In this document: piece after piece, positions 15,246 through 44,581 of the stretch
Numbering within the stretch: position 1 is the stretch's first letter
How the letters are laid out: each line of letters opens with the position of its first letter
Sequence record: PQ488502.1
Origin: Escherichia phage BUCT632
Reading direction: 5' to 3' (one strand)
Length of the DNA stretch: 64,000 bases
Position numbers and translations under genes: made by a program
The notes under the pieces: generated by a model
Database searches by the model: none
Seen by the model: only the letters and a program-made list of their open reading frames with translations
Told to the model about the DNA's origin: nothing

Positions 15246-15274
15246 TTGCTTAAAACCCTCTAATTTAGTATAAT
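15246..15274 (+). promoter_or_regulatory. T5-type early promoter cassette
   Basis: AAAATTTTCTTGCTT..17..TATAAT. Confidence 0.6.
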
Positions 15275-15301
15275 ATTCGTATTGAAAGTGAGGAGGGCTT
15301 T

Positions 15302-15580
15302 ATGCGAATTTATAACTCAAATTCATTAGGGTTTAAACCATTGAGAAAACGTGCACAATCACCTCGTAAAATAAGAAAGGCTAATATTGGTGAGCCAGAA
15401 ACACGTCTTCCACCTCCACCAGAACAACGTTTAGTTTACCTGGATGAAGAATTAGCTGAACGCGAAAGAAAAGCTCAAGAAGAGATTGAGCGTAAGAAAA
15501 TGTGTACTGCTCCAGCGTATAATAAAGGGGCGTATCAATATGTCTCAGATGCCGAACAAGCTAAGATGGTTGGTAGATAA
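15302..15580 (+). CDS. hypothetical protein
   Basis: 92 aa ORF after promoter and GAGGAGG RBS. Confidence 0.5.
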   Translation: MRIYNSNSLGFKPLRKRAQSPRKIRKANIGEPETRLPPPPEQRLVYLDEELAERERKAQEEIERKKMCTAPAYNKGAYQYVSDAEQAKMVGR

Positions 15581-15596
15581 TTTTTAAAAAATTCAT

Positions 15597-15625
15597 TTGC
15601 TAAACGCTTCAAATTCTCGTATAAT
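15597..15625 (+). promoter_or_regulatory. T5-type early promoter cassette
   Basis: AAAAAATTCATTTGCTA..17..TATAAT..CATAAATTGATAAAC. Confidence 0.65.
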
Positions 15626-15663
15626 ATACTTCATAAATTGATAAACAAAAAGGAAAATAAATA

Positions 15664-16179
15664 ATGGCTAAGCAGAAAACCGCAAAAACTCAAGCAGCTC
15701 CGGCAGTTAAAACTTTCCCGCAGACCGAGGCTAATCGCAAAGCTCGTCTGGAACGCCACCTGCGTAAGCATCCTACCGATGCTCAGGCTGCTCAAGCACT
15801 GAATAATCCGGCTCCGATTCGTCAGAAGCCTAAGGCTAAAAATGCCACACGTCAATTCTACAAAATGGTTATGTATGTAGAAAATTACGGCCACAAATCT
15901 GTCCCAGTTTCCCTGAGCTTCAACGCTGGGGCTGAATTGTTCTCTCGTAATGGTATGTCTATGAAAGACTATGAAAAGGCAGTTAACCAGAAGCGTAAAC
16001 CAACAGCAGATGTATTGCGTGATACTCGTGGACAGTTTGGCTCTGTTAAACCAAATATCTTTGGCGTAGAGTATAGTAAAGATAATGTTCGTGCTCTGTG
16101 TTACGGTGTAGGCATTAAGTTCACGGGTGATTCTGCTCGTAAATCTGCTAAACCAGCTCGTAAGCGTAAAGCGAAGTAA
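15664..16179 (+). CDS. hypothetical basic protein
   Basis: 171 aa Lys/Arg/Ala-rich ORF. Confidence 0.55.
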   Translation: MAKQKTAKTQAAPAVKTFPQTEANRKARLERHLRKHPTDAQAAQALNNPAPIRQKPKAKNATRQFYKMVMYVENYGHKSVPVSLSFNAGAELFSRNGMSMKDYEKAVNQKRKPTADVLRDTRGQFGSVKPNIFGVEYSKDNVRALCYGVGIKFTGDSARKSAKPARKRKAK

Positions 16180-16188
16180 TAGATAAAT

Positions 16189-16212
16189 AGGGGCGAAAGC
16201 CCCTCTTATTTG
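16189..16212 (+). terminator. rho-independent terminator
   Basis: AGGGGC-GAAA-GCCCCT hairpin plus T-rich tail. Confidence 0.6.
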
Positions 16213-16220
16213 GAGAGACT

Positions 16221-16457
16221 ATGCGTAATTTTGTAGCAAAGAATGATTTTAACCGTGCTAGCACTCATAAGTCCGCTAGAGATTACACGCGACTTTCTAG
16301 TCATGAGGTAATGGACACCTGTTATGAAGAGCTGGAAGGTAGCTGGAATGAATGGCCCGACTTCTCTATGGAAGAGAACTGGGATGTCAGTGAGGATATG
16401 CTTCCTGGTTTTAAAGACCCCAAGAAGTGGGAGTCTATTAAAGAGACAGCTCTTTAA
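16221..16457 (+). CDS. hypothetical protein
   Basis: 78 aa acidic ORF. Confidence 0.45.
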   Translation: MRNFVAKNDFNRASTHKSARDYTRLSSHEVMDTCYEELEGSWNEWPDFSMEENWDVSEDMLPGFKDPKKWESIKETAL

Positions 16458-16485
16458 TAGTTTTCTACACAATAAAGGATAAGTT

Positions 16486-17187
16486 ATGAAAGTAAAACCA
16501 TTTGGTATGCTAGATATTGAATCTCTAGGAACTCCAGGAGATTGTGGTACTACTCATATCGCAATGCCTTCATTCGCTTTTGTAGCTATGCATGGAATTG
16601 ATAAAGACCCTGGTCTAGTATTTGTTACTTTGGATGTACAAGATCAGCTTAATTCTGGTGCTAAAGTTACAGCGTCTACTCTAGCATTCTGGATGGATCA
16701 AGCTAAGCATAGCCCGTCTGCTATCCACATTATGGAAGCTATGAACGAGCGTAATCCAAAGCTGATTGCATTCCAAAACGGTAAACATCATTGTACTAGT
16801 AAACTCGGCTCTAACTATGCTGCCTACTCTAAGGCCCAAAATATTATGGAGTTGGCTCTAGGCGATAATGCTTTGTATTATGGCAACGGCCCAGAGTTCG
16901 ATATGACTATCTACTCTGCAAACACTTTCCATGCTGGAACCAATGAAGAAATAGTTCCGTGGAAATTCTGGAACTTGGGTAATGTTCGATCTCTTCGTAA
17001 TCTCTGGATGCAAACTGGCTATAGTTATAAAGCTCTAGAAACCGAAGCTATTAGCTGGGCAATAGCTAAAATGGAGAAAATGGACACTATTCGTTATGGG
17101 ATCTATCCGGTTAAGCATGATCCAGCATTCGATGCCTTAGTTGAGAGCTATTGTGTTGCAGCTATGATCGAAAAAATGAAAATTTGA
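16486..17187 (+). CDS. putative DEDD-type 3'-5' exonuclease
   Basis: N-terminal GMLDIESLG resembles DnaQ-like exo motif I (D-x-E). Confidence 0.45.
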   Translation: MKVKPFGMLDIESLGTPGDCGTTHIAMPSFAFVAMHGIDKDPGLVFVTLDVQDQLNSGAKVTASTLAFWMDQAKHSPSAIHIMEAMNERNPKLIAFQNGKHHCTSKLGSNYAAYSKAQNIMELALGDNALYYGNGPEFDMTIYSANTFHAGTNEEIVPWKFWNLGNVRSLRNLWMQTGYSYKALETEAISWAIAKMEKMDTIRYGIYPVKHDPAFDALVESYCVAAMIEKMKI

Positions 17188-17188
17188 T

Positions 17189-17217
17189 TTGCTTTCGGCT
17201 CCAAAATTCTGTATAAT
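17189..17217 (+). promoter_or_regulatory. T5-type early promoter cassette
   Basis: TTGCTT-17-TATAAT then CATAAATTTGAGAAAAC leader. Confidence 0.65.
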
Positions 17218-17257
17218 ATATTCATAAATTTGAGAAAACAATAAAAGGAAAACAAAT

Positions 17258-17440
17258 ATGCCAGTATCTAAAAATGTTCGTAAAAATGGTAAGAAAGCTA
17301 CTCGTAATCTGGGTATCCGTCGTATGGCTGAACGTCAATCAGGTATCCAGAAAATCTTTGATCTGCTAAATCGTGCTAATCCTAAAATTGATAACAGTAA
17401 CGATACTGTTCTGCGCACTCTGCTGGCAATTGGTCTGTAA
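17258..17440 (+). CDS. hypothetical protein
   Basis: 60 aa basic ORF after promoter cassette. Confidence 0.5.
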   Translation: MPVSKNVRKNGKKATRNLGIRRMAERQSGIQKIFDLLNRANPKIDNSNDTVLRTLLAIGL

Positions 17441-17493
17441 TAGACCAAATTTAAACAAATTCAAATCTCAAACTTCATATAAGGAAGCAAATA

Positions 17494-18132
17494 ATGACTA
17501 CTCGTATTTCTAAAACTCGCGCTCTGGCAACTATCAAATCTCTGGAAGCTAAAATCCGTAAAGCTACTGAACAACAGCTTCTGATCGCTGTTGGTGAAGG
17601 TAAGGATAAAAATAAGGTTGTAGTTGGCGCTGCAATCGAAGTAGATGACCTGTCTACCCGTATTAAGACTGATTTCCAATCTCTGCTGGATATGATGTCC
17701 CAGCGTGATCGTATCAAAGCTGCTCTGATTAAGAGCAATGCAGAAACAATCGTTGAGATTGGTTCTCGTAAAATGACTGTTGCGGAAGCAATTGAAGCTA
17801 AGCGTTCTATGGAGCTTAAAGCTCAACTGCTGGCTAACATGCGTAAGCAGTTCCATGCCGCTACGGTTAAGTTTAATACGCAGAAAGCACAGTTTGATGC
17901 TAAATATGAGCGTTTGCAGGATAGCATGGCTACCCGCGATAAGAAAACTTCCGAAGATGAAGTTAAAATGCAGCTCAACCTGCTGGAACTCAAGAATACT
18001 CCATTCTTGATTGATCCTCTGGAACTGGAGAAGCTGATTAAGCAGCATGACGAGGAATACCAGGACTTTGCAACAAATGTTGACTTTGTTCTGTCCGAGT
18101 CTAACGCTTCTACCTTCATTGAAGTAGAGTAA
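17494..18132 (+). CDS. hypothetical coiled-coil protein
   Basis: 212 aa, heptad-like charged sequence, RBS AAGGAAG; preferred over antisense shadow ORF. Confidence 0.55.
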   Translation: MTTRISKTRALATIKSLEAKIRKATEQQLLIAVGEGKDKNKVVVGAAIEVDDLSTRIKTDFQSLLDMMSQRDRIKAALIKSNAETIVEIGSRKMTVAEAIEAKRSMELKAQLLANMRKQFHAATVKFNTQKAQFDAKYERLQDSMATRDKKTSEDEVKMQLNLLELKNTPFLIDPLELEKLIKQHDEEYQDFATNVDFVLSESNASTFIEVE

Positions 18133-18515
18133 TAATTTAAAAGCTAGTAAATCGGTAGACGAAAGCCCAAGCATCTTACCTCGCAGCAGCGGTTGAAATA
18201 CGAGGTTAAATAAGACCGCTGACCATACTATAAAGTATAATCTATTGGAGATTATGTTTATTACACCAGCCTTTTAAGCTGACACGTAAGAACAAAGCGT
18301 CGTTGATATTACCGACACAACTTCAAAGATAAACATTTAAGTATGAAAGCTGAAAAGTTTAAAGAACTCAAACTTCTAAACTTCTAAAGCTAAAAGATGC
18401 AAAGTATTCGTTGATGATTCAAACCCTAGATCAAAGGTACATGGCTCATAAGATATGGCCTGTGGCGCCTCTAGGCTGTTTATCGGTTTACTAGTTTCAC
18501 AATTTAAAAATGTAT

Positions 18516-18544
18516 TTGCTAATTTACTAAGTTATCTGTATAAT
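18516..18544 (+). promoter_or_regulatory. T5-type early promoter cassette
   Basis: TTGCTA-17-TATAAT with A-rich upstream element. Confidence 0.6.
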
Positions 18545-18574
18545 ATATTTTTAAATTGATGAAACGAGGCTATT

Positions 18575-18892
18575 ATGACTTTTCATATTTTGATTGATGA
18601 TGTGCGTAATCTTCACGGAATGGACATTATCATTCGAACCCCAGAAGCCGCTGTAGAGTTTCTGAATAAAACTGATACCACAGGCCATTTCGTTTATATG
18701 GATAATGACTTGGCTGTAGATGGTATGGAAGGTTATCAAATTCTTCGTTTACTCTTAGAATTTGGGCAGAGACCAAAGAAAGTGGTACTAGTAACCTCGA
18801 ACCCAGTAGCTAAGCAAAATATGCGTAATGATTTGCTTGACTTAGGGTATAAAGAAAATCCCAATCGTGTTGAATATGATTGGCAGGAGTAA
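18575..18892 (+). CDS. hypothetical protein
   Basis: 105 aa ORF. Confidence 0.5.
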   Translation: MTFHILIDDVRNLHGMDIIIRTPEAAVEFLNKTDTTGHFVYMDNDLAVDGMEGYQILRLLLEFGQRPKKVVLVTSNPVAKQNMRNDLLDLGYKENPNRVEYDWQE

Positions 18893-19347
18893 AAAGAATG
18901 AAGGCAGCTTTGCTTTTAGTAGCTGCCCTTACCTTCAGCTTTAGTAGTCAGGCATCGCACGATGCAAAAGAAATAGATTGCATTGCTAAAAATATCTATT
19001 TCGAGAGTCGTGGTGAGGGCATAAAGGGAATGACGGCGATTGCACATGTTACTAAAAACCGTGTAAACTCCGGTAAATTCCCAGATTCCTACTGTAAAGT
19101 AGTATATCAGTCTAACCAGTTCTCTTGGGTATCTAAGAGACCAAAAGTTGATAAAACCGATGAGGCTTGGCAAACAGCCAAGAATTTAGCTAGAGTGATA
19201 TACTACGTTGATTTACCACAAGATCCTACACATGGAGCACTATACTTCCATAGTGGTAAAGATAAACCTTATTGGACAAAGAAGTTTAAGAAAACAACTA
19301 AGATTAAGGGACATACGTTTTATAAACCTGTTGTCACTAAAACTTAA
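18880..19347 (+). CDS. secreted SleB-like cell-wall hydrolase family protein
   Basis: signal peptide MKAALLLVAALTFSFSSQA; motif NIYFESRGEG...AIAHVTKNRV typical of SleB/Hydrolase_2 family. Confidence 0.55.
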   Translation: MAGVKRMKAALLLVAALTFSFSSQASHDAKEIDCIAKNIYFESRGEGIKGMTAIAHVTKNRVNSGKFPDSYCKVVYQSNQFSWVSKRPKVDKTDEAWQTAKNLARVIYYVDLPQDPTHGALYFHSGKDKPYWTKKFKKTTKIKGHTFYKPVVTKT

Positions 19348-19355
19348 AAATTTAC

Positions 19356-19384
19356 TTGCTTAAATACTTAAATTTCTGTATAAT
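19356..19384 (+). promoter_or_regulatory. T5-type early promoter cassette
   Basis: TTGCTT-17-TATAAT. Confidence 0.6.
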
Positions 19385-19415
19385 ACTTCCATAAACTAAT
19401 GAGAGGAAGCGAAAT

Positions 19416-19586
19416 ATGAAATCAGTTGTAATTATTGGTGTTAACACTCGCGGTATTCGTACTACGAAAACTGTTAAAACATCTAACGTGGCTGAAATTA
19501 CTACTAACCCTAAAAAGTTTGATTTCGCCAAAGTCTCGGCAGTTATGACAGAACAATCTTTTAACCAAGCGTTAGGAATGAAATAA
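19416..19586 (+). CDS. hypothetical small protein
   Basis: 56 aa ORF (below ORF-track cutoff) with GAGAGGAAG RBS. Confidence 0.4.
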   Translation: MKSVVIIGVNTRGIRTTKTVKTSNVAEITTNPKKFDFAKVSAVMTEQSFNQALGMK

Positions 19587-20029
19587 TGGAAGAGAATATT
19601 TTAGATGTTTTGCGTAGAGCTTTGCAGGATTCTAAGTTTAATGGTTCTGATAAAGAAGTCGCTAAAAGCTACCAGACCATAATCGGGGATCTTCAGCGTA
19701 TTGATAAAGATTTCATCACTTCTGAACAATTTGTGTCTTATCTCAAAGCTCAACTAAAAAGCATTAACCAGATGAAAGCTAAACTTCATGGTCGAGATCT
19801 TGATAGCTATAGCTTACAGTCTGCTCAGTATGAATACATTCTAAATAAGTGGTTGCAGGAGTATCTGCCTCCTCAGTTATCTGATACTGAGATTCGTAAA
19901 TACTTTGCAGAATTAGTTAAGCTAAACCCTGGAATTACAAAGGGTATGCTGATGAAAGCGATTAAGGAAGAATTTCCTGGGCGTTATGATGGTGGTACTG
20001 CTGCTCAGATTGCTGGCGAATTTAATTAA
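19586..20029 (+). CDS. hypothetical protein
   Basis: 147 aa ORF, ATAATG overlap. Confidence 0.55.
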   Translation: MEENILDVLRRALQDSKFNGSDKEVAKSYQTIIGDLQRIDKDFITSEQFVSYLKAQLKSINQMKAKLHGRDLDSYSLQSAQYEYILNKWLQEYLPPQLSDTEIRKYFAELVKLNPGITKGMLMKAIKEEFPGRYDGGTAAQIAGEFN

Positions 20030-20037
20030 AAATTCAT

Positions 20038-20066
20038 TTGCTAAATGCTTATAAATTCTGTATAAT
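20038..20066 (+). promoter_or_regulatory. T5-type early promoter cassette
   Basis: AAAAATTCATTTGCTA..17..TATAAT; reads into ~900 nt without a plus-strand ORF. Confidence 0.6.
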
Positions 20067-20289
20067 ATATTCATAAATTAGGGAACAGCGAGCCGATTAC
20101 GCTGAGTGCAGAATCCCAACCGGAGCGCATTGAATAGAGTCGGTGGGTTAGTTGTAAAACTAGTACACAGGGGGCGGCAATCCCGGTTAGTGGCTAGAAC
20201 GTGTAAAATGAGGCGTCTGAAACCTCTCCCCTAAACTCTTCTCTAATTTATAAATAGTGGGGTGTGGAAATCACTTATGTAGTAACACT

Positions 20290-20361
20290 GCCGTCCTAGT
20301 ATAATTGGTATTATCAAGCCGTAACTGGTGGAAGATGTAGGTTCGAATCCTACGGTCGGTA
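20290..20361 (+). ncRNA. tRNA-like element (aberrant anticodon arm)
   Basis: perfect T arm GTAGG-TTCGAAT-CCTAC, D arm with AATTGGTA loop, acceptor with one mismatch; no canonical anticodon stem. Confidence 0.35.
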
Positions 20362-23732: not shown

Positions 23733-23879
23733 ATACTTTACACTACCCCAGCGAAAATGTCAAGGGGTCTTTAAAAATTGCCCCCGGATTTTTAGTGGGG
23801 TCACAAATTTTGGTCCTCACCACTTATCTGCTACCCTTAAGTGCCCTATGATTTTCCTCTAAAAAGTTAAAAAATTTGA

Positions 23880-23908
23880 TTGCTTGAATGCTAAATTCTC
23901 TGTATAAT
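23880..23908 (+). promoter_or_regulatory. T5-type early promoter cassette (PN25-like)
   Basis: AAAAAATTTGATTGCTT..17..TATAAT..ATAAATTTGAGAGAGGA closely resembles T5 PN25 (from memory). Confidence 0.7.
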
Positions 23909-23938
23909 ATATCTATAAATTTGAGAGAGGAACCAAAT

Positions 23939-24457
23939 ATGAATGTTGATGAGCTAACACAGCACCTCTTATCTAGAGGATTTGATACAGATAAATATCA
24001 TTGCTGGTTAAGTCCGGAAGGGTGGCTAACAGTCCCGTTGTATGATTTCTCTGGAATGTTGAGGGGCTATCAAACTTATAATCCTTCTGCTCCAAAAGGT
24101 CATGGTAAGTGCCCATTTGAAGCTAAATACTTTACTTATTCTACTACACAGTGTGTATGGGGACTAGAAACTCTCAATGGAGATGAAAAAGTAGTATTGA
24201 TCGCTGAATCTGTATTTAAGGCAGTTGCGTTACATAATGCGGGTTATCCAGCCCTGGCAATGTTGGGTTCTTCTCCAGGAAAAGCGTTATTAAAGCAACT
24301 GAAATTACTACCTTTTAAATTGGTAGCTGTTGGAGACAATGATCCCGATGGTGAAAAATTTGCTAGACAATTAAATGGATTTGTTTCTCCTGTAGATGTA
24401 GATGAGATGTCTACCGAAAACTTGAAAAATTTTCTTGCTATGAAGCTAAATTTCTAA
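23939..24457 (+). CDS. hypothetical protein
   Basis: ORF starting MNVDELTQ after RBS of promoter cassette. Confidence 0.55.
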   Translation: MNVDELTQHLLSRGFDTDKYHCWLSPEGWLTVPLYDFSGMLRGYQTYNPSAPKGHGKCPFEAKYFTYSTTQCVWGLETLNGDEKVVLIAESVFKAVALHNAGYPALAMLGSSPGKALLKQLKLLPFKLVAVGDNDPDGEKFARQLNGFVSPVDVDEMSTENLKNFLAMKLNF

Positions 24458-24463
24458 TATAAT
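24435..24463 (+). promoter_or_regulatory. early promoter overlapping CDS 3' end
   Basis: TTGCTA-17-TATAAT reading into tRNA-Ser. Confidence 0.5.
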
Positions 24464-24478
24464 ATATCTTATAAATTC

Positions 24479-24564
24479 GGAAGAATAGCATAACGGTATT
24501 GCAGCAGATTGCTAATCTGTCGGTTTGAAATATAGCCTTGTGGGTTCGATTCCCACTTCTTCCG
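24479..24564 (+). tRNA. tRNA-Ser(GCT)
   Basis: acceptor GGAAGAA/TTCTTCC, anticodon loop TTGCTAA, long variable arm, T-loop TTCGATT, CCA encoded. Confidence 0.75.
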
Positions 24565-25324: not shown

Positions 25325-25354
25325 CTCCTCCAAACAGAATTTTTAAAAATGTAC

Positions 25355-25384
25355 TTGCCTTTTGCTTTAAATTTCTGATATAAT
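25355..25384 (+). promoter_or_regulatory. T5-type early promoter cassette
   Basis: TTGCCT-18-TATAAT then ATAAATTGATGAAGGAG leader. Confidence 0.6.
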
Positions 25385-25414
25385 AGTTATATAAATTGAT
25401 GAAGGAGTTAACGA

Positions 25415-25690: not shown

Positions 25691-25726
25691 CTAATACAGC
25701 ATTGGGCAAGTTCTTTAAAATTTGAC

Positions 25727-25755
25727 TTGCTCAGTGCCTTAAAACTTGATATAAT
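25727..25755 (+). promoter_or_regulatory. early promoter upstream of tRNA-Tyr
   Basis: TTGACT/TTGCTC -35, TATAAT -10; ~110 nt leader with hairpin precedes tRNA. Confidence 0.5.
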
Positions 25756-25879
25756 AGTTATCTAATTTGGAAACATATCTGAATGAGAAGTAATTAGGCG
25801 AGTTGCTTTTAGGGGTAAAGTCAGGAAATCCTGAAATATTCCACCTTGAGTTTAACCGACTTACTTTTCATTCAAATAT

Positions 25880-26767: not shown

Positions 26768-27040
26768 ATGCATCCTGAAAACTTCTTTATTTACTGCGCG
26801 GATAAGTCGCTGAAACGTAGAATTAACAAAGTCTATCATTATCGTGCTAGTCAACAGCCTTATGTATACGCTTTTGACGGTGATCACATTCCACTAGAAC
26901 AATTATCTTGTGATTACATGATATTGAAGAACTTTGACGAGACGAAGATCTCAAGCGTTCATAATCGACAGAATCCATTAACGTGGAAATATAAGAAGAA
27001 AAAGAAAGGCATCAAATTCTTAAAAAATGTAGTTGCTTAG
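26768..27040 (+). CDS. hypothetical protein
   Basis: ORF starting MHPENFF 7 nt after AAGGAG. Confidence 0.45.
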   Translation: MHPENFFIYCADKSLKRRINKVYHYRASQQPYVYAFDGDHIPLEQLSCDYMILKNFDETKISSVHNRQNPLTWKYKKKKKGIKFLKNVVA

Positions 27041-27061
27041 TTTCCAAAAGTTCTGTATAAT
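27033..27061 (+). promoter_or_regulatory. T5-type early promoter cassette driving tRNAs
   Basis: TTGCTT-17-TATAAT; cassette RBS followed by a 10-codon vestigial ORF running into tRNA-Cys. Confidence 0.6.
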
Positions 27062-27109
27062 AATTACATAAATTGAACTGGAGAAGCAACATGACAGAAC
27101 AAGATAAAT

Positions 27110-27182
27110 CGACCGTTGGCTGAATGGCTTAGGCGAAGGATTGCAAATCCTTTTTATGTGAGTTCAAATCTCATGCGGTCGT
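27110..27182 (+). tRNA. tRNA-Cys(GCA)
   Basis: acceptor CGACCGT/GCGGTCG, anticodon arm AAGGA-TTGCAAA-TCCTT, T-loop TTCAAAT, CCA encoded. Confidence 0.75.
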
Positions 27183-28411: not shown

Positions 28412-28559
28412 ACACTATAAAGTTTACTTATTATGTAGGTTCCGGTAGATCGGCGGGTCTATTCTGGCATTTAAGAGGGGTCTCGCAAACTTCTTTGTCA
28501 GCCGTGGGGTTGGTAGCCTCCAGGCGGCCTACACAATAAGTAAATTTATTAAAAATTCA

Positions 28560-28588
28560 TTTGCTATTCTGCTTAATTCTCTGTATAA
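28560..28588 (+). promoter_or_regulatory. T5-type early promoter cassette
   Basis: AAAAATTCATTTGCTA..17..TATAAT. Confidence 0.6.
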
Positions 28589-28621
28589 TATATTTTATAA
28601 AGTGAAGAGAAGGAAAGCAAA

Positions 28622-29210: not shown

Positions 29211-29232
29211 ACCAATTTCAAGAAAAACGCAG

Positions 29233-29261
29233 TTGCTTGATGCTTAATTTCTTGTTATAAT
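29233..29261 (+). promoter_or_regulatory. T5-type early promoter cassette without ORF
   Basis: TTGCTT-17-TATAAT; cassette RBS GAGGAG lies in hairpin GATGAGGA-GAAA-TCCTCATC and no ATG follows. Confidence 0.55.
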
Positions 29262-29284
29262 ATTTATATAAATTGATGAGGAGA

Positions 29285-29499
29285 AATCCTCATCATAGTT
29301 CACTAAGGTATTAGCTCGACCTAGGACTGGCTGCCAAAAAGCACGATCCCCATGATTCGGGAGAAGTTCTAGATTGGTCCACTAGATTCAGCGGCAACTG
29401 AATAGTGTATTGGGTTTGCGAGATGACGCAGTTCCTTCCGCTCGAAGCGAAGGTGCTGTAGTTACGCCGAGCTAATAGCCTTAGTAAACTAAAGAATTT
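29285..29499 (+). ncRNA. putative structured leader/noncoding RNA upstream of tRNA-Ala
   Basis: ~215 nt promoter-proximal, no plus-strand ORF, several hairpins (e.g. TTCAGCGGCAACTGAA, CCTTCCGCTCGAAGCGAAGG). Confidence 0.3.
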
Positions 29500-31954: not shown

Positions 31955-31972
31955 CCAAATTTAAAAATTCAT

Positions 31973-32001
31973 TTGCTTTCTCTCTTATTTCTTGTTATAA
32001 T
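31973..32001 (+). promoter_or_regulatory. T5-type early promoter cassette
   Basis: AAAAATTCATTTGCTT..17..TATAAT. Confidence 0.6.
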
Positions 32002-32031
32002 ACTTGTATAAATTAACGAGAGGGAAACCAA

Positions 32032-32531: not shown

Positions 32532-32532
32532 T

Positions 32533-34280: not shown

Positions 34281-34297
34281 TTTCTGAAATAATTCAT

Positions 34298-34326
34298 TTG
34301 CTAAACCTCTCTTTTCTTGCTATAAT
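34298..34326 (+). promoter_or_regulatory. T5-type early promoter cassette
   Basis: AATAATTCATTTGCTA..17..TATAAT. Confidence 0.6.
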
Positions 34327-34356
34327 ATGTTTATAAATTGATGAGAGAGGTTTGAA

Positions 34357-36409: not shown

Positions 36410-36423
36410 AATAAAATTTTAGT

Positions 36424-36451
36424 TGCTTAGATGCCCAAACTTTTGTATAAT
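36424..36451 (+). promoter_or_regulatory. T5-type early promoter cassette
   Basis: TTGCTT-17-TATAAT. Confidence 0.55.
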
Positions 36452-36482
36452 ATGTTTATAGATTGAGGCAAGAGGATTAAAT

Positions 36483-39245: not shown

Positions 39246-39278
39246 GCCAGGGTTTAACGACCCTGGCTTTTCTTTTAT
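39246..39278 (+). terminator. rho-independent terminator
   Basis: AGCCAGGGT...ACCCTGGCT hairpin plus T-run. Confidence 0.65.
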
Positions 39279-39391
39279 CTAAAATTCTTCTTGACAACGA
39301 CAAAATTTTATGCTCCAGAAGTGATCTTTAAAAACACATTGTAATTTTCCTCCAAAATTAGTATAATGGTACTGGTTAGAGGAGGTTACAA

Positions 39392-40048: not shown

Positions 40049-40458
40049 GTTTTAAATTTGGTAAAAATAGCGAAAAACAATTAGCTACCGTTAAGCCAGA
40101 GCTACAAAAAGTAGCTCGTAGAGCTTTAGAATTATCTCCGTATGATTTCACGATCGTACAGGGTATTCGTACAGTAGCACAAAGTGCCCAGAATATTGCT
40201 AATGGTACTTCATTTTTAAAAGATCCTAGTAAAAGCAAGCATATTACTGGGGATGCCCTTGATTTTGCTCCATACATTAATGGCAAAATTGATTGGAATG
40301 ATTTAGAAGCATTTTGGGCAGTTAAAAAGGCTTTTGAACAAGCTGGTAAAGAACTGGGCATTAAACTTCGCTTTGGTGCTGATTGGAATGCTTCGGGAGA
40401 TTATCACGATGAAATAAAACGTGGTACCTATGATGGCGGTCATGTCGAACTAGTTTAA
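40045..40458 (+). CDS. putative endolysin (M15-type peptidase-like)
   Basis: 137 aa; His/Asp-containing motifs HITGDALDF, GDYHDE; size and context match T5 endolysin (from memory). Confidence 0.55.
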   Translation: MSFKFGKNSEKQLATVKPELQKVARRALELSPYDFTIVQGIRTVAQSAQNIANGTSFLKDPSKSKHITGDALDFAPYINGKIDWNDLEAFWAVKKAFEQAGKELGIKLRFGADWNASGDYHDEIKRGTYDGGHVELV

Positions 40459-40469
40459 TTAATAACTGA

Positions 40470-40492
40470 GGCGGGAATATTCCCGCCTTTTT
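40470..40492 (+). terminator. rho-independent terminator
   Basis: GGCGGGA-ATAT-TCCCGCC hairpin plus TTTTT. Confidence 0.65.
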
Positions 40493-40535
40493 AGGCAAAG
40501 GGGGCTTTAATAATTTTTGAAGATAGGAGAAAGCC

Positions 40536-40952
40536 ATGTTTGCAGAACTATTCACTATGATGCTGCTAGGTATCTGGAAAATAAGTCTAGTAGTATTCGT
40601 TTTAATGATAGTCTTTACTATCCTTGCATTAACTACCCGAAATAGCTTATTAATAAAGGTTATTCACGGACTAGAGTATATAATTATGGGTTCATTCGGC
40701 GTTTGTAAATGCAATTGCCATAGAGATACGAAATATTGTTGGTTATGGATGGAACTAGAGAATCCTATATCCATAGCTTTGGCTGTTTCATTCGGTATGA
40801 TTCTTATGGCCCTTACTCTAGCATTAATACCTTTGATGTTAGCTGGGGGAGTTACAGCGTATTTCACCCTTTTCTCCCCGATACTTATGTACTCAATTTA
40901 CCCAATAACTATGTATCTAGTTAGGAAAAGATTTATACATGTAGTAGATTAA
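40536..40952 (+). CDS. hypothetical multi-pass membrane protein
   Basis: 138 aa, 3-4 hydrophobic segments. Confidence 0.5.
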   Translation: MFAELFTMMLLGIWKISLVVFVLMIVFTILALTTRNSLLIKVIHGLEYIIMGSFGVCKCNCHRDTKYCWLWMELENPISIALAVSFGMILMALTLALIPLMLAGGVTAYFTLFSPILMYSIYPITMYLVRKRFIHVVD

Positions 40953-40965
40953 GATAAAAAAGTAG

Positions 40966-40994
40966 TTGACTTTTAGTCCTAGTTATTATATAAT
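40966..40994 (+). promoter_or_regulatory. T5-type early promoter cassette
   Basis: TTGACT-17-TATAAT then CATAAATTAGTTAAGAGAGG leader. Confidence 0.6.
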
Positions 40995-41027
40995 ATATAC
41001 ATAAATTAGTTAAGAGAGGTATATATT

Positions 41028-41459
41028 ATGTCTGATCGTTTCTATACTCAAATGGCGGAACATTTTCGTATACCACATTACGAGCTAAACATTGCACTCC
41101 GTGATCATGACTCTCCTGAGTACAAAAAGCTCGAAAAGAAAGCGGAAAAATCTATTGATACAAAGGTAGGTGCATCTATGTCTAAGGGCAAAAAGTTAAC
41201 TCGTCTTGATCTTAATAAAATTTTAACTGAACTTTTGGGTACTGATATTGAAGGTGCTAAATTACCGCTTCTTGTACTAGAGACTATGATTAAAAAGGTC
41301 AAAAATAAAGAGTATAAAAAGGTAGAAGTCCCAGAAGGCAGATTAAAAGCTCCTTATCAGGAAGCATTAACCGAGTGTTTGGGTGTAAATCTTGATCTAA
41401 GCACTGCAACCGTAAAAACTATGAGAAACTTCTTAGAGGCCATTAATAACTATGAGTAA
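41028..41459 (+). CDS. hypothetical protein
   Basis: 143 aa ORF. Confidence 0.5.
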   Translation: MSDRFYTQMAEHFRIPHYELNIALRDHDSPEYKKLEKKAEKSIDTKVGASMSKGKKLTRLDLNKILTELLGTDIEGAKLPLLVLETMIKKVKNKEYKKVEVPEGRLKAPYQEALTECLGVNLDLSTATVKTMRNFLEAINNYE

Positions 41460-41742
41460 ATTAGTATATCTATTGAAAGGTTCCACTTGCAATCCTTGCA
41501 AAATGTTTGAGCCAGTATTTGATAAAGTAGTCAATGACTATAATTTGGAAATCCATAAAGAGACTGATAATACAGAATTAATGCAGAAATTTGGTGTGCG
41601 CCAAGTTCCTGTAGTAGTTCTGGCGGATCGCTTACCTAATGGTCGAGTAGAAGCTAATCATATTCTGATTGGACGTCAGCTTCGTAAAGAAACTATGCAC
41701 GAAGCTATTAAAAATTTCCTGGATGATAATCCAGAGGACTAA
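41452..41742 (+). CDS. thioredoxin/glutaredoxin-like protein
   Basis: CNPC redox motif near N-terminus, 96 aa. Confidence 0.5.
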   Translation: MSKLVYLLKGSTCNPCKMFEPVFDKVVNDYNLEIHKETDNTELMQKFGVRQVPVVVLADRLPNGRVEANHILIGRQLRKETMHEAIKNFLDDNPED

Positions 41743-41750
41743 TAAACAAA

Positions 41751-41781
41751 GCCTGATCTTAGCTGATCAGGCTTTTATTTT
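41751..41781 (+). terminator. rho-independent terminator
   Basis: GCCTGATC...GATCAGGC hairpin plus TTTTATTTT. Confidence 0.65.
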
Positions 41782-41783
41782 AC

Positions 41784-41812
41784 TTGCTTTTTGCTAAAAA
41801 TTTTGGTATAAT
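41784..41812 (+). promoter_or_regulatory. T5-type early promoter cassette
   Basis: TTGCTT-17-TATAAT. Confidence 0.6.
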
Positions 41813-41921
41813 ACTTATATAAATTGATGAGAGACATTAATATGATTATGTCACATATCTTTGTATGGATTTTAGTCATATTAATGGCTTTCTTTGTCCT
41901 TCAAGAAATAGGAGTATTACG

Positions 41922-42299
41922 ATGAACTATGCATATCTTATTATTAATAATAATGTAGTTTGTGGTACTCGCGCCGTTGAGATGGGTATTACAGAAGAAA
42001 AGTATAAGTCACTTCCAGAAAAGGAACAACAATATTATGTTGAAGAAGCTGCTTGGGAATATGCTGATGTTTATCCCGAACAACGTGAAGATCGCGTTAC
42101 TATTGTTGTTTCTTTGGGGTTGGTTGGCTGTGATACCGAAGTTGATACAGACCTAGAGACTTTAGAAGAATGGGGAGAATTAGACATTTTAGCTAAAAAC
42201 TCTTTAATCCGTGAGGCTTTTTGGGAAGCAGTTGACTGCCATGTTGTCTTTGAGCCTAACGATGAGGAAGCTGAGAAGCATACTAATCACTGGAGATAA
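41922..42299 (+). CDS. hypothetical acidic protein
   Basis: ORF starting MNYAYLIINN after GGAG RBS. Confidence 0.45.
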   Translation: MNYAYLIINNNVVCGTRAVEMGITEEKYKSLPEKEQQYYVEEAAWEYADVYPEQREDRVTIVVSLGLVGCDTEVDTDLETLEEWGELDILAKNSLIREAFWEAVDCHVVFEPNDEEAEKHTNHWR

Positions 42300-42303
42300 T
42301 TAA

Positions 42304-42549
42304 ATGTTAGCAGAACAAGCAAAACGTTTAACCAGAATAAATAGAGCTGCACTTCTTAAGAGCAGAAAGAAATCATATAAGTATGTTAAAAAGAGAATAG
42401 TTTCTTCTGTGGAGATTGGGGGTTCTTTTGTACAGTTTAATCGTGATGAAATTAGTTATGAAGCTATAAAAGCCCTCTATAAAGAGGGTTATACTCTCCA
42501 ACTATCTAATGATTATGGCACAACTATTTTAACTGTTATTTGGGAATAA
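42304..42549 (+). CDS. hypothetical protein
   Basis: 81 aa ORF. Confidence 0.45.
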   Translation: MLAEQAKRLTRINRAALLKSRKKSYKYVKKRIVSSVEIGGSFVQFNRDEISYEAIKALYKEGYTLQLSNDYGTTILTVIWE

Positions 42550-43415
42550 TTATGAAAAAAGAATTTAATGTACATAAAACTCTAGTAGTGCCTGATGACG
42601 CCAACTTATTTTTCGTTGGTGATATTCATGGATGCAATGATTTGCTAGAAGATGCGTTGAAATTAGCAGGGTATAATGGCAAAAAAGATTGCTTAGTATG
42701 TGTTGGTGACTTAATTGACCGAGGCACACAAAACCTACAAGTTTTAGCCAAATTCCTGTATAATCCACATTTTATCAGTGTCCGTGGTAATCATGACCAA
42801 TTTATGATTGCAGGAGATTGGGCTAATTGGATGTATAACGGTGGTATGTGGGCTATGGATGAGCTGGATGCAGACACCATTAAAAATATTGCCGAAGATA
42901 TGGCTGAAAAAATGCCAGTATTCCTAACTGTTAGACATCGTGGTAAGAAGTATGGTGTTGTTCACGGTGGCGTACCTTTTACGTACAAAGAATGTGGTAA
43001 TGAAGTAGAAACCCCAATATGGGATAATCTTATTGCACAAGTAGAAGCAGCTAAGGAAGACCCACATGACCATCCTGGATACCATATTGAACCATATTTA
43101 TGGGATCGAGATGTAATCCAAGAAATAGGCTTCTACTTGTCCAAAAATGGTGAAGAACACCCGTATTTCCAGCGTTATGCAGGATTTAAAGAAAAATATA
43201 TGGTAGAAGTGCCAGAGGTTAAAGGGGTAGATTTCGTATTTCACGGACATACTGGGGTTCCTTACCCACTTCTTTATAAAAACCGTGTTTATCTTGATAC
43301 TGGCGGTGTTTTCAACGGGCAGTTGACGATTGCGCAAGTTAATGATGAAACGGGTAAAATCACCACATTTACTACACTCCGGGAAGATAGCTGTGGTGTA
43401 CAGAGGGTTCTTTAA
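42540..43415 (+). CDS. Ser/Thr protein phosphatase (metallophosphatase)
   Basis: calcineurin-like motifs GDIHGC, GDLIDRG, GNHD. Confidence 0.7.
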   Translation: MGIIMKKEFNVHKTLVVPDDANLFFVGDIHGCNDLLEDALKLAGYNGKKDCLVCVGDLIDRGTQNLQVLAKFLYNPHFISVRGNHDQFMIAGDWANWMYNGGMWAMDELDADTIKNIAEDMAEKMPVFLTVRHRGKKYGVVHGGVPFTYKECGNEVETPIWDNLIAQVEAAKEDPHDHPGYHIEPYLWDRDVIQEIGFYLSKNGEEHPYFQRYAGFKEKYMVEVPEVKGVDFVFHGHTGVPYPLLYKNRVYLDTGGVFNGQLTIAQVNDETGKITTFTTLREDSCGVQRVL

Positions 43416-43936
43416 TGAAAGTTCGCTTTTGGAGTGATCTCCACTTGTGGCATGCAAATATTACTAAATTCAGACCAATCTTCTCTACTATGGAAGAGCA
43501 TGACGAATTTATTATGGATACTATTACATCCGTGAAAGATAAGCGTACAGTATTCTATATTTTAGGAGACGCATTTGTATCTAGAAATGGTTTGGAGAAG
43601 TTCGAAAAACTCTTTGGCAATGTTAGAACTACGTTAGTTTTGGGAAACCACGACTTAGAACGAGAAGGATTATCTTTCAAAGACTTAATAGGGATTGTAG
43701 ATAATGTACAATCACTAGTTAAGTATAAAAACTTCTGGCTTTCCCATGCTCCAATACACCATGGGGAGCTGAGAGGTAAGAAGAACTTACATGGGCATAC
43801 TCACTTTGAGCTAATGGGGGATCCTCGTTATATTAACGTTTGTGTCGAGTATGCAAAATCACCAGTACGTCTGGAAGACATCATGAGTGGTAAGTATACC
43901 TCACATGATAAAACTAGCTGGATGTTAAATGTCTGA
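43415..43936 (+). CDS. calcineurin-like metallophosphoesterase
   Basis: GNHD and GHTH motifs; overlapping start with upstream phosphatase. Confidence 0.55.
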   Translation: MKVRFWSDLHLWHANITKFRPIFSTMEEHDEFIMDTITSVKDKRTVFYILGDAFVSRNGLEKFEKLFGNVRTTLVLGNHDLEREGLSFKDLIGIVDNVQSLVKYKNFWLSHAPIHHGELRGKKNLHGHTHFELMGDPRYINVCVEYAKSPVRLEDIMSGKYTSHDKTSWMLNV

Positions 43937-44044
43937 GTATATAGCTGAGGCTATTATTAAACGAATCATACAAGCGATAGCAATACTTATAATCATTTAT
44001 ATTGCTATTGGCACAGGATTAGGCATTTTAATTAAAAGTTTTAT

Positions 44045-44073
44045 TTGCTAAAATGCTTAAGTTTCTGTATAAT
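44045..44073 (+). promoter_or_regulatory. T5-type early promoter cassette
   Basis: TTGCTA-17-TATAAT. Confidence 0.6.
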
Positions 44074-44103
44074 TACTTTATAAATTGATGAGAGGGAATC
44101 AAA

Positions 44104-44535
44104 ATGAACAAAGTTGATAAAGCTCTAGTTTTCGCAGCAGCAGATAAGTTTGAACAAGTTAAGGCAACTTTCCGAACCTTATTCCAGTCTTACGTTCAGG
44201 ATAAGTCTAACCCTATCTCTGAACGTTTGATGGTCTGGGAATGTCATGCTTGCAATGCCCTATTAATTGCTGATTATCGTAGCGATATAGATAAAGATCT
44301 GTGCGAAATTCTTATCCCTGAGGAGGCAGAACGTTATCAGTTAATCTCTTTCCAAGATTTGGCGGAGCATATCATTCCTGATGATCTTTGGGATAAATAC
44401 TATGGTGATCCTGAAGATGAAGGAATGACTCCAGAAGCCTGTATTGAGCTGATCTGCAAAGATCATCCTGAAATTGCAGAGAAATTTGAAAAAGTTTTTG
44501 CTTCTGAGTTCTCCGGCGTTGTTAACGATTGGTAA
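44104..44535 (+). CDS. hypothetical acidic protein
   Basis: 143 aa ORF. Confidence 0.5.
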   Translation: MNKVDKALVFAAADKFEQVKATFRTLFQSYVQDKSNPISERLMVWECHACNALLIADYRSDIDKDLCEILIPEEAERYQLISFQDLAEHIIPDDLWDKYYGDPEDEGMTPEACIELICKDHPEIAEKFEKVFASEFSGVVNDW

Positions 44536-44552
44536 GTAATTAAAAAATTCAG

Positions 44553-44581
44553 TTGCTTTAAGCCTTAAAATTCTGTATAAT
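44553..44581 (+). promoter_or_regulatory. T5-type early promoter cassette
   Basis: AAAAAATTCAGTTGCTT..17..TATAAT. Confidence 0.6.

What the first reader, a model, noticed from the sequence alone, without database searches (positions are those of the whole stretch)
15246..44581. Stereotyped early promoter-leader cassette reused more than 20 times
A ~65-bp module (A-rich UP element, TTGCT(T/A), 17-bp spacer, TATAAT, then CATAAATT(G/T)A...GAGAGG RBS) recurs before many small genes and before tRNA groups, strongly resembling T5 PN25-type promoters. The -35 to start-codon architecture is copied, not just the hexamers, suggesting modular gene acquisition. Variants (29233 hairpin-locked RBS, 27033 vestigial ORF) show repurposing for RNA genes.
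Basis: partly seen in the sequence, partly recalled or inferred. Interest (0 to 1): 0.5.

Follow-up and report, generated by a model that had tools for sequence, protein, structure and literature searches.

The report
Phage T5-type early promoters, already known
The repeated 65-base module is the classic strong early promoter and short leader of phage T5; the window is a T5-like phage, every copy sits where T5 already has an annotated promoter, so the finding is real but ordinary.

Summary
TTGCTW-N16-18-TATAAT occurs 22 times against 0.22 expected, and a position matrix finds 27 copies in the window, 21 of them inside 15246-44581. All point the same way as the genes downstream. Conservation runs from an A-tract at about -45 to about +18: TTGCT(T/A), a 17-bp spacer, TATAAT, an ATATT discriminator, ATAAATT at +1 and a GAGAGG ribosome-binding site. 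The ATG lies 21-27 nt after the predicted start in 17 copies.

The window is a T5-like phage. Each copy maps one-to-one to a promoter annotated in T5 (AY543070), including P-H207, P-D/E33, P-F30 and P10a to P16-17. This promoter class has been known since the 1980s.

"Modular gene acquisition" is not supported. In 55 related loci the cassettes are fixed landmarks, and variable inserts carry their own cassette in only 2 of 118 cases. Junctions with a cassette are no more variable than other gene junctions (p=0.32). The only segments found at more than one site are homing-endonuclease genes.

Both variants hold up. The ORF at 27091 is a 10-codon deletion remnant. The copy at 29256 drives a highly structured RNA, placed where T5 annotates RNA2H.

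Verdict: already known, low interest.

The parts
7530..7595 (+). Cassette, -10 at 7565. Orthologue of the T5 promoter upstream of phoH. Long 67-nt leader.
11127..11192 (+). Cassette, -10 at 11162, directly behind a terminator hairpin. Orthologue of the T5 hegH/nrdB promoter. T5 has a 523-bp HNH gene inserted just after the -10.
13758..13823 (+). Degenerate cassette with an 18-bp spacer, -10 at 13793, behind a terminator. Orthologue of the unnamed T5 promoter between thy and rnh. In the window two extra genes follow it, one of them an HNH endonuclease.
15234..15299 (+). Cassette, -10 at 15269. Orthologue of the T5 promoter of T5.090. 21-nt leader.
15585..15650 (+). Cassette, -10 at 15620. Identical in sequence to T5 P-H207.
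17177..17242 (+). Cassette, -10 at 17212. Orthologue of the T5 promoter of T5.086.
18504..18569 (+). Cassette, -10 at 18539. Orthologue of the T5 promoter of T5.084.
19344..19409 (+). Cassette, -10 at 19379. Orthologue of T5 P-D/E33.
20026..20091 (+). Cassette, -10 at 20061. Orthologue of T5 P16-17. No ribosome-binding site or start codon. Drives a non-coding stretch (RNAX in T5), a tRNA-like element at 20290-20361 and tRNA-Arg.
23868..23933 (+). Cassette, -10 at 23903. Orthologue of T5 P15a and the closest copy to PN25 in the window (52 of 70 positions). Absent, together with the 1.9-kb minus-strand block upstream, in four related loci.
24423..24488 (+). Cassette, -10 at 24458. Orthologue of T5 P15b. 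tRNA-Ser begins about 8-9 nt after the predicted start, and there is no ribosome-binding site.
25344..25409 (+). Degenerate cassette (TTGCCT, 18-bp spacer), -10 at 25379. Orthologue of T5 P15c.
25715..25780 (+). Degenerate cassette (TTGCTC), -10 at 25750. Orthologue of T5 P14a. Precedes tRNA-Tyr.
27021..27123 (+). Cassette, -10 at 27056 (T5 P14b), plus the 10-codon remnant ORF at 27091-27123 (MTEQDKSTVG) that overlaps the start of tRNA-Cys (27110).
28549..28614 (+). Cassette, -10 at 28584. Orthologue of T5 P13a. Drives a 52-aa ORF, then tRNA-Pro and tRNA-Met.
29221..29499 (+). Cassette, -10 at 29256 (T5 P13b), plus its structured non-coding transcript (29268-29499). A 5' hairpin buries GAGGAG. 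tRNA-Ala and tRNA-Leu follow.
31961..32026 (+). Cassette, -10 at 31996. Orthologue of T5 P11.
34286..34351 (+). Cassette, -10 at 34321. Orthologue of the T5 promoter of T5.053.
36411..36476 (+). Cassette, -10 at 36446. Orthologue of the T5 promoter of T5.047, where T5 annotates an overlapping terminator.
40954..41019 (+). Degenerate cassette (TTGACT), -10 at 40989. Orthologue of the T5 promoter of T5.038.
41772..41837 (+). Cassette, -10 at 41807, directly behind an 11-bp-stem terminator (41748-41775). Orthologue of the T5 promoter of T5.036. In the window it is followed by about 470 bp that T5 lacks.
44033..44098 (+). Cassette, -10 at 44068. Orthologue of T5 P-F30.
44541..44606 (+). Cassette, -10 at 44576. 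Highest matrix score (69.7). Orthologue of the T5 promoter of T5.032.
5321..5386 (-). Cassette on the minus strand, -10 at 5351. Orthologue of the T5 promoter of T5.100. Outside the reported interval.
2267..2332 (-). Degenerate minus-strand copy (TTGCAT), -10 at 2297. No ribosome-binding site or start codon within 70 nt. Not mapped to T5.
55419..55484 (-). Weak minus-strand copy (TAGCCA, 18-bp spacer), -10 at 55449, in the part of the window that matches the T5 terminal repeat. It lies in the unaligned gap between the two T5 matches, opposite the stretch of T5 that holds hegG and an annotated promoter; orthology was not tested.
61697..61762 (-). Minus-strand cassette, -10 at 61727. 25-nt leader and an 88-aa ORF. 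It lies beyond the end of the T5 terminal-repeat match.

Best explanation
The modules are the early-class promoters of a T5-like phage, read by the host sigma-70 RNA polymerase and fused to a short standard leader. In order:
- An A-tract at about -45 to -37 acts like a proximal UP element.
- The -35 element is TTGCT(T/A), followed by a 17-bp spacer and a perfect TATAAT.
- An A+T-rich ATATT discriminator precedes the start, and transcription begins at the A of ATAAATT.
- In coding copies a GAGAGG-type ribosome-binding site lies at about +11 to +18, with the ATG at +22 to +28.

The module has two separable functional parts. The promoter plus the first transcribed bases is kept in every copy, including those that drive tRNAs or non-coding RNA. 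The ribosome-binding site and start codon are kept only where a protein gene follows.

The likeness between copies reflects selection for one promoter type (strength, promoter escape and probably early-class timing) at fixed places in the genome, not recent copying.

Shown here: the sequence pattern, its statistics, its orientation, its orthology to the T5 annotation, and its conservation in distant relatives. Taken from the literature or from memory: that the T5 counterparts are active promoters, and where transcription starts. Inferred: the roles of the A-tract, discriminator and initial transcribed bases in this particular phage.
For: Pattern: 22 matches against 0.22 expected. 27 matrix hits against a shuffle maximum of -3.3.

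Position profile: A-tract, TTGCTW, TATAAT, A/T/x/T/T after the -10 and ATAAATT from the position predicted as +1.

Orientation and leader: all copies point the same way as the genes downstream, and the leader is 21-27 nt in 17 copies.

T5 orthology: the window is a T5-like phage. Each copy maps to a promoter feature in AY543070, including P-H207, P-D/E33, P-F30 and P10a to P16-17, and the P-H207 sequence is identical.

Literature: Klimuk et al. 2020 (PMC7472727) state that all known T5 early promoters carry ATATT in the discriminator. They saw primer-extension products for 11 of 19 promoters tested, and detected early promoter P15A. The N25 initial transcribed sequence is a standard model for promoter escape (Kammerer et al. 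1986, cited in PMC4005639).

Two-part structure: RNA-driving copies keep ATAAATT but lack the ribosome-binding site and ATG (20061, 24458, 29256).

Depth of conservation: the same architecture occurs in contigs of 118-123 kb that share only 30-70% protein identity with the window.

Specificity: generic sigma-70 matches are at chance level.
Against: No transcript 5' ends were measured for this phage, so the start sites are carried over from T5. Several conserved positions are not explained by standard sigma-70 contacts: C at about -24, T at -16, G at -13, and the initial transcribed bases. Another factor may therefore read them. Five copies are degenerate (13793, 25750, 40989, 55449, 2297) and may be weak or inactive. 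The PN25 sequence and its start site were recalled from memory, and Gentz and Bujard 1985 could not be read.
Confidence: 0.93

Rival explanations
1. The cassettes are, or double as, portable stretches of homology that drive gene shuffling, like the promoter-early stem-loop (PeSL) cassettes of T4-type phages. On this view genes are gained, lost and swapped by recombination between copies.
For: Homology breaks inside cassette-bearing junctions pile up at the two cassette edges: 6 sites at -40 to -31 and 13 at +20 to +49 from the -10 start, against 4 in the 50-bp core. One contig (L011) has a hybrid cassette, with the P13b upstream part joined to the P11 core, and lacks the 2.7 kb between them. 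Different gene bodies share the same promoter, leader and first four codons (MTEQ) at the P14b site. About five cassettes sit directly behind a terminator, as PeSLs do. A 1.9-kb block is present or absent together with the P15a cassette.
Against: Cassette junctions are not clearly more variable than other junctions: 17/22 against 52/80 have at least one break (p=0.32), and the density is 10.1 against 15.0 per kb. Only 1 of 179 events has the cassette-to-cassette signature. Only 2 of 118 relative-specific segments carry a cassette. No gene other than homing-endonuclease-like genes was found at two different sites. Thirteen of 22 cassettes are never missing. The edge clustering is expected in any case, because BLAST alignments run through any conserved motif and stop where the gene begins.
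Confidence: 0.1
2. The class-specific positions beyond the sigma-70 hexamers (spacer, ATATT discriminator, ATAAATT) are a recognition mark for a phage-encoded factor that times the early class. The module would then be an operator-like site as well as a promoter.
For: These positions are conserved among copies and in distant relatives. Klimuk et al. 2020 report that gpT5.026 binds RNA polymerase and weakens its contact with the discriminator. They suggest that the shared ATATT explains its different effect on early and late genes. A pre-early promoter of T5 (P-H22) lacks these features.
Against: The same paper finds no strong effect of gpT5.026 in vitro. The initial transcribed bases of N25 affect escape with host polymerase alone (Kammerer 1986; from memory), so no extra factor is needed to explain their conservation. 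Nothing in the sequence identifies a binding protein.
Confidence: 0.2
3. The conserved +1 to +20 part works mainly at the RNA level, as a standard 5' leader that sets translation efficiency or transcript stability, rather than in transcription.
For: The ribosome-binding site and the fixed 21-27 nt distance to the ATG are kept in coding copies. At 29256 the same bases are used to build a 5' hairpin.
Against: ATAAATT is kept in copies where nothing is translated, and where the tRNA starts about 8-9 nt after the predicted start (24458). The purine-rich part is lost in exactly those copies. So the two halves behave differently, and only the second half looks translational.
Confidence: 0.12
4. The copies are recent duplicates spread by copy-and-paste, and they look alike by descent rather than through function.
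For: The shared stretch (about 65 bp) is longer than the two hexamers.
Against: Pairwise identity at unconstrained positions inside the module (eleven positions below 0.33) and in both flanks (0.26-0.30) equals the background of 0.262. Conserved and free positions are interleaved. The positions are orthologous across relatives that differ by 8-15% in DNA, and the architecture persists at 30-70% protein identity.
Confidence: 0.02

Closest known systems
Bacteriophage T5 early promoters (PN25, P-H207, P-D/E33, P15a and others; Gentz and Bujard 1985; annotated in AY543070)
   Same: Everything that defines them is present: the A-rich block near -43, TTGCT(T/A), a 17-bp spacer, TATAAT, the ATATT discriminator, an N25-type start ATAAATT(T/G)GAGAGAGG and a short leader. 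The genome positions are orthologous, and one copy is identical in sequence to P-H207.
   Different: Nothing essential. The host phage is a close relative of T5, about 92% identical over the aligned parts. The genes next to some cassettes differ from those in T5.
PeSL cassettes (promoter-early stem-loop) of T4-type phages (Arbiol et al. 2010, PMC2839356; Comeau et al. 2014, PMC4122927)
   Same: Both are a stereotyped strong early sigma-70-type promoter repeated many times among small non-essential genes. Some copies abut a terminator stem-loop. One hybrid cassette with the intervening DNA deleted was seen.
   Different: Most copies have no stem-loop. Indels are seldom bounded by two cassettes (1 of 179), and inserts seldom carry one (2 of 118). 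The cassettes are positionally fixed.
UP elements of E. coli promoters (contacted by the C-terminal domain of the RNA polymerase alpha subunit)
   Same: An A-tract, AAAAATT, lies just upstream of the -35 at about -45 to -37, where the proximal UP subsite lies (placement of the subsite is from general knowledge).
   Different: Binding was not tested. In about five copies the same A/T run is also the tail of the upstream terminator.
Free-standing HNH homing endonuclease genes of T5 (hegA to hegH)
   Same: They account for about a third of the variable segments that sit next to the cassettes, and they are the only segments found at several sites.
   Different: They are the mobile units in this region. 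The promoter cassettes are not.

Membership tests
T5 early (PN25-type) sigma-70 promoters | -35 TTGCT(T/A), 17 +/- 1 bp spacer, -10 TATAAT | tested here: met
   22 exact matches against 0.22 expected. 23 of the 27 copies found have a 17-bp spacer.
T5 early (PN25-type) sigma-70 promoters | A-rich block upstream of the -35 (around -43) | tested here: met
   A in 17-18 of 19 copies at four consecutive positions, about -45 to -42 from the predicted start.
T5 early (PN25-type) sigma-70 promoters | ATATT in the discriminator (Klimuk et al. 2020, PMC7472727) | tested here: met
   The positions after TATAAT read A 18/19, T 13/19, A 8 or T 7, T 16/19, T 10/19.
T5 early (PN25-type) sigma-70 promoters | N25-type initial transcribed sequence ATAAATT...GAGAGG | tested here: met
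   ATAAATT sits at the predicted +1 in 15 of 27 copies, and near variants or a one-base shift in 6 more. The reference N25 sequence was recalled from memory.
T5 early (PN25-type) sigma-70 promoters | Positional orthology to promoters mapped or annotated in T5 | tested here: met
   blastn of the T5 promoter features with 200 nt on each side places each one on a window copy. P-H207 is identical.
T5 early (PN25-type) sigma-70 promoters | Transcription starts at the predicted +1 early in infection | not testable with these tools
   Only literature on T5 itself is available: promoters selected by function (Gentz and Bujard 1985, not readable) and primer extension in Klimuk et al. 2020.
PeSL-type mobile regulatory cassettes | Composite of a terminator stem-loop plus an early promoter | tested here: not met
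   Only about 5 of 27 copies abut a terminator (11162, 13793, 36446, 41807, 5351).
PeSL-type mobile regulatory cassettes | Indels between relatives bounded by cassettes, with hybrid cassettes at the joints | tested here: not met
   1 of 179 unique events (L011). Cassette junctions are not enriched for breaks (p=0.32).
PeSL-type mobile regulatory cassettes | Variable genes travel with a cassette | tested here: not met
   2 of 118 relative-specific segments hold an internal cassette. No gene other than homing-endonuclease-like genes was seen at two sites.
PeSL-type mobile regulatory cassettes | Mini-circles formed by exchange between neighbouring cassettes | not testable with these tools
   Needs PCR or sequencing of infected cells.
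Extended -10 promoters | TG at -15/-14, one base before the -10 hexamer (TGnTATAAT) | tested here: not met
   The common form is CTGTATAAT, with TG directly against the hexamer. In 25001-45000 the scan flags TGn for only two cassettes (25355 and 34298).
UP element | A/T-rich proximal subsite at about -46 to -38 bound by the alpha subunit C-terminal domain | tested here: inconclusive
   The sequence fits. Binding cannot be tested here.

The most novel reading that the evidence does not exclude
In T5-like phages the early promoter-leader cassette, sometimes including the first few codons, may serve as a shared landing strip. New gene bodies would then be recombined in directly behind a resident promoter and translation start. 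This would be a weaker, one-sided version of PeSL-mediated shuffling, and it has not been described for this family. The hints are the break clusters at the cassette edges, the MTEQ start shared by unrelated ORFs at P14b, and one hybrid cassette.
Probability: 0.12. Interest if true: 0.4.

Novelty: already known. Interest (0 to 1): 0.12.

Why it matters
It matters little as a discovery. T5 early promoters are among the best-studied strong sigma-70 promoters, they are the basis of common expression vectors, and they are annotated in the T5 reference genome.

The useful outputs are practical:
- A position matrix that finds this promoter class with no false hits in unrelated phage DNA, which could annotate the many T5-like genomes that lack regulatory features.
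- A clear split of the module into a transcription part, kept before RNA genes, and a translation part.
- A negative result on the idea that the cassettes move genes around. In this region the mobile units are homing-endonuclease genes, and the large deletions arise between tRNA genes.

Tried and rejected
1. A generic sigma-70 consensus scan gave 56 sites against 58.6 expected, so it carries no information here. A first attempt on 5000-25000 failed on the size limit.
2. I searched for PN25 itself in the window and in T5 10-59 kb. It is not there. The best paralogue is P15a, at 52-54 of 70 positions.
3. Gentz and Bujard 1985 (PMC214212) is not held. Searches for a T5 transcription-start map found nothing relevant.
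4. Rfam at gathering threshold found only tRNAs, so no family covers the RNAX-like or RNA2H-like stretches.
5. PeSL-like shuffling was tested four ways and not supported: junction enrichment, cassettes inside inserts, the same segment at different sites, and presence or absence of each cassette.
6. Recent duplication is rejected, because identity at free positions equals background.
7. Loci L030-L032, L034-L042 and L044-L046 came in through a shared SPFH/Band 7 protein. They do not align with the window at the DNA level, apart from 765 bp of that gene in L034. Eight of them (L030-L032, L034, L039, L042, L044, L046) served as negative controls.
8. The gene map used for the junction test was heuristic, with seven calls added and seven removed by hand. 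Break positions are BLAST alignment ends and are only accurate to a few bases.

Full report
**What is in the sequence**

TTGCTW, 16-18 bases, TATAAT occurs 22 times in the window against 0.22 expected from shuffles. I aligned the 19 plus-strand copies that have a 17-bp spacer on their -10 element. Information content is above background over about 65 bp. In order, the conserved parts are:
- an A-tract (A in 17-18 of 19 copies at four positions) followed by TT;
- TTGCT(T/A);
- a spacer with a few favoured bases;
- an invariant TATAAT;
- A-T-x-T-T;
- ATAAATT, starting at the base expected to be the transcription start;
- a purine-rich GAGAGG-like stretch.

A two-part position matrix with a variable spacer finds 27 copies on both strands. 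Twenty-three are on the plus strand between 7.5 and 44.6 kb. Four are on the minus strand, at 2297, 5351, 55449 and 61727. Twenty-one lie in the reported interval. Five shuffled sequences never scored above -3.3, while copies not used to build the matrix score 19 to 50. All copies point the same way as the genes downstream. In 17 copies a ribosome-binding site and an ATG follow 21-27 nt after the predicted start.

Two controls show that the signal is specific. A generic TTGACA/TATAAT scan is at chance level (56 found, 58.6 expected). The matrix gives no hit in about 140 kb of unrelated phage loci.

**What it is**

The window is a T5-like phage. Its 15-35 kb stretch is 96-97% identical to several Citrobacter, Salmonella and Escherichia phages classed in or near Tequintavirus. 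It is about 92% identical to T5 itself over the aligned parts, with the window's plus strand corresponding to the T5 minus strand.

The T5 reference record AY543070 carries 75-bp promoter features throughout the syntenic region. Many have names from earlier functional work: P-H207, P-D/E33, P-F30, P16-17, P15a/b/c, P14a/b, P13a/b, P11 and P10a. I ran blastn with each T5 promoter plus 200 nt on each side. It places each one on a window copy, and the P-H207 sequence is identical to the copy at 15597.

The literature fits. Klimuk et al. 2020 (PMC7472727) state that all known T5 early promoters share ATATT in the discriminator. They report primer-extension products for 11 of 19 promoters tested, and they detected the early promoter P15A. 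The initial transcribed sequence of T5 N25, AUAAAUUUGAGAGAGGAG as I recall it, is a standard model for promoter escape (Kammerer et al. 1986, cited in PMC4005639). I could not read Gentz and Bujard 1985. The PN25 sequence I used is from memory. Its closest match in the window is the P15a orthologue, at 52 of 70 positions.

**How it most likely works**

The host sigma-70 polymerase reads TTGCTW and TATAAT across a 17-bp spacer. The A-tract lies where a proximal UP subsite would lie. The A+T-rich discriminator and the ATAAATT start are the features that earlier work ties to open-complex behaviour and escape. The purine-rich stretch is the ribosome-binding site.

The window itself shows that the module has two parts. 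The copies that drive RNA genes keep ATAAATT but have no ribosome-binding site or start codon:
- 20061 precedes a non-coding stretch, a tRNA-like element and tRNA-Arg.
- 24458 precedes tRNA-Ser, which begins about 8-9 nt after the predicted start.
- 29256 precedes a structured RNA and then tRNA-Ala and tRNA-Leu.

So the first part serves transcription and the second part serves translation. Start sites in this phage are inferred, not measured.

**Is the likeness due to copying?**

Pairwise identity among 21 copies varies by region:

| Region | Pairwise identity |
|---|---|
| -10 element | 1.00 |
| -35 element | 0.88 |
| A-tract, discriminator and initial transcribed bases | 0.55-0.60 |
| Eleven interleaved positions inside the module | below 0.33 |
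| Upstream flank (-60 to -41) and downstream stretches (+31 to +59) | 0.26-0.30 |
| Background expectation | 0.262 |

That is the pattern of selection on particular contacts, not of recent duplication. The same architecture, down to ATAAATT and an ATG about 24 nt later, is present in contigs of 118-123 kb whose proteins are only 30-70% identical to those of the window.

**Test of "modular gene acquisition"**

I fetched 66 related loci from the viral contig collection and used the 53 that align with the window, plus T5 and phage Stokescottia. I chained their blastn matches to the window and collected 179 distinct insertion, deletion or replacement events.

- Breaks are concentrated at gene junctions in general, at 10-15 per kb against 1.5 per kb inside genes.
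- The 22 junctions that hold a cassette are not clearly more variable than the 80 that do not. Seventeen of 22 against 52 of 80 have at least one break (Fisher p=0.32). The mean is 1.73 against 1.01 sites per junction (one-sided Mann-Whitney p=0.048), but cassette junctions are longer and their density per kb is lower.
- Of 118 segments of at least 150 bp that are specific to a relative, only 2 contain a cassette of their own. The cassettes detected near the others are the resident ones at the edges.
- About a third of these segments match T5 homing-endonuclease genes. These are the only variable segments found at more than one site. Two window-specific genes next to cassettes are of this kind: an HNH_3 protein at 14204-14752 and a T5orf172 protein at 25979-26524.
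- Thirteen of the 22 cassettes are aligned through in every locus that spans them. Losses occur only within deletions of the tRNA region and with one 1.9-kb block at 21.98-23.9 kb.

Three observations do point towards recombination at cassettes:
- Breaks within cassette junctions cluster at the two cassette edges.
- One contig (L011) has a hybrid of the P13b and P11 cassettes, with the 2.7 kb between them missing.
- Unrelated ORFs share the promoter, leader and first four codons at P14b.

The first of these is expected from how alignments end. The other two are single cases. I therefore rate a PeSL-like role (Arbiol et al. 2010, Comeau et al. 2014) as unlikely but not excluded.

**The two variants**

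At 27056 the ORF is ATG ACA GAA CAA GAT AAA TCG ACC GTT GGC TGA, giving MTEQDKSTVG. In phage Stokescottia the same promoter is followed by two ORFs. The first begins MTEQ and the second ends QDKSTVG. In T5 a different 42-aa ORF also begins MTEQ. The window ORF is thus an in-frame fusion left by a deletion between two AACAAGA repeats, so "vestigial" is correct.

At 29256 the leader UGAUGAGGA-GAAA-UCCUCAUCA forms a 9-bp hairpin that contains the GAGGAG. The whole 232-nt stretch up to tRNA-Ala folds at -85.7 kcal/mol, with a z-score of -5.97 against shuffles. Relatives show A-U, G-U and G-C states at one stem pair. T5 annotates a stable RNA of unknown function (RNA2H) at this place. So "hairpin-locked RBS" is a fair description. 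That the hairpin stabilises the RNA is my inference.

**Verdict**

It is a rediscovery of a well-known, annotated promoter class in a close relative of T5. The evolutionary reading, that genes were acquired as promoter-plus-gene modules, is not supported by the comparison with relatives. Novelty: already known. Interest: low.

Noticed in passing
window 27091-27123: The ten-codon ORF MTEQDKSTVG is an in-frame fusion of the first 4 codons of one ORF and the last 6 codons of another. Both full ORFs are present in phage Stokescottia. The joint lies at a 7-bp repeat, AACAAGA. T5 has a third, unrelated 42-aa ORF behind the same MTEQ start.
   Followed up: yes
window 29268-29499: A non-coding stretch between the P13b-type promoter and tRNA-Ala folds very stably (-85.7 kcal/mol, z -5.97), with a 5' hairpin and a long closing helix. 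No Rfam family matches it. It lies where T5 annotates 'RNA2H, stable RNA of unknown function'. One stem pair shows A-U, G-U and G-C states among relatives.
   Followed up: partly
L011 14816-14873 (window 29280 to 31963): A hybrid promoter cassette: the upstream part of P13b is joined to the core of P11, and the 2.7 kb between them (tRNA-Ala to tRNA-Thr) is absent. This is the only clean cassette-to-cassette deletion among 179 events.
   Followed up: yes
window 24639 to 31337 (L027, L068); 24929 to 29593 (L069); 31879 to 32711 (L007, L067): Large deletions in relatives have both ends in or at tRNA genes. The joints overlap by 16 and 55 bp in the first two cases. One is between the two tRNA-Leu genes. 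The tRNA genes seem to act as the repeats that delete parts of this region.
   Followed up: partly
window 21983-23896: A block of three or four minus-strand genes with its own TTGACA-type promoter (T5 P12), together with the P15a cassette that restarts plus-strand transcription, is absent from four related loci (L004, L017, L018, L023). There the terminator is followed directly by the next gene, with a different leader.
   Followed up: partly
window 14204-14752 and 25979-26524: Two genes lacking from T5 at these places are homing-endonuclease-like: one matches HNH_3 (E 8e-14) and one matches the T5orf172 domain (E 3e-8). About a third of all relative-specific inserts in the region match T5 heg genes, at many different intergenic sites.
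   Followed up: partly
window 20290-20361 and 24574-24648: Rfam's tRNA model finds two more tRNA-like elements (35.5 and 40.3 bits) that ARAGORN did not report. The second lies where T5 annotates tRNA-Ile2 (CAU). The first lies inside the stretch that T5 calls RNAX.
   Followed up: no
window 20973-21920; loci L034-L041: The SPFH/Band 7 lipoprotein-like gene has homologues at 76-80% amino-acid identity on contigs of 142-180 kb that otherwise do not align with the window. The T5 record notes similarity to ORFs of T4-type phages Aeh1 and 44RR. This looks like a gene shared between two phage families.
   Followed up: no
window 41842-41925: The cassette at 41807 is followed by a 27-codon hydrophobic ORF (MIMSHIFVWILVILMAFFVLQEIGVLR) that overlaps the start of a DUF7167 gene through ATGA. 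T5 and ten related loci lack this ~470-bp segment, and the homology break lies in the leader.
   Followed up: partly
window 48867-60636: This part matches the T5 left terminal repeat (first-step-transfer region, 84-89% identity) in reverse orientation. The window continues for 3.4 kb past the point that corresponds to the T5 genome end, so the source record is probably permuted or joined across the terminal repeat.
   Followed up: no
window 28413-28419: An insertion hot spot: five different insert lengths (192 to 388 bp) occur in relatives at the same 6-bp site, about 170 bp upstream of the P13a-type cassette. None of them matches a heg gene.
   Followed up: no
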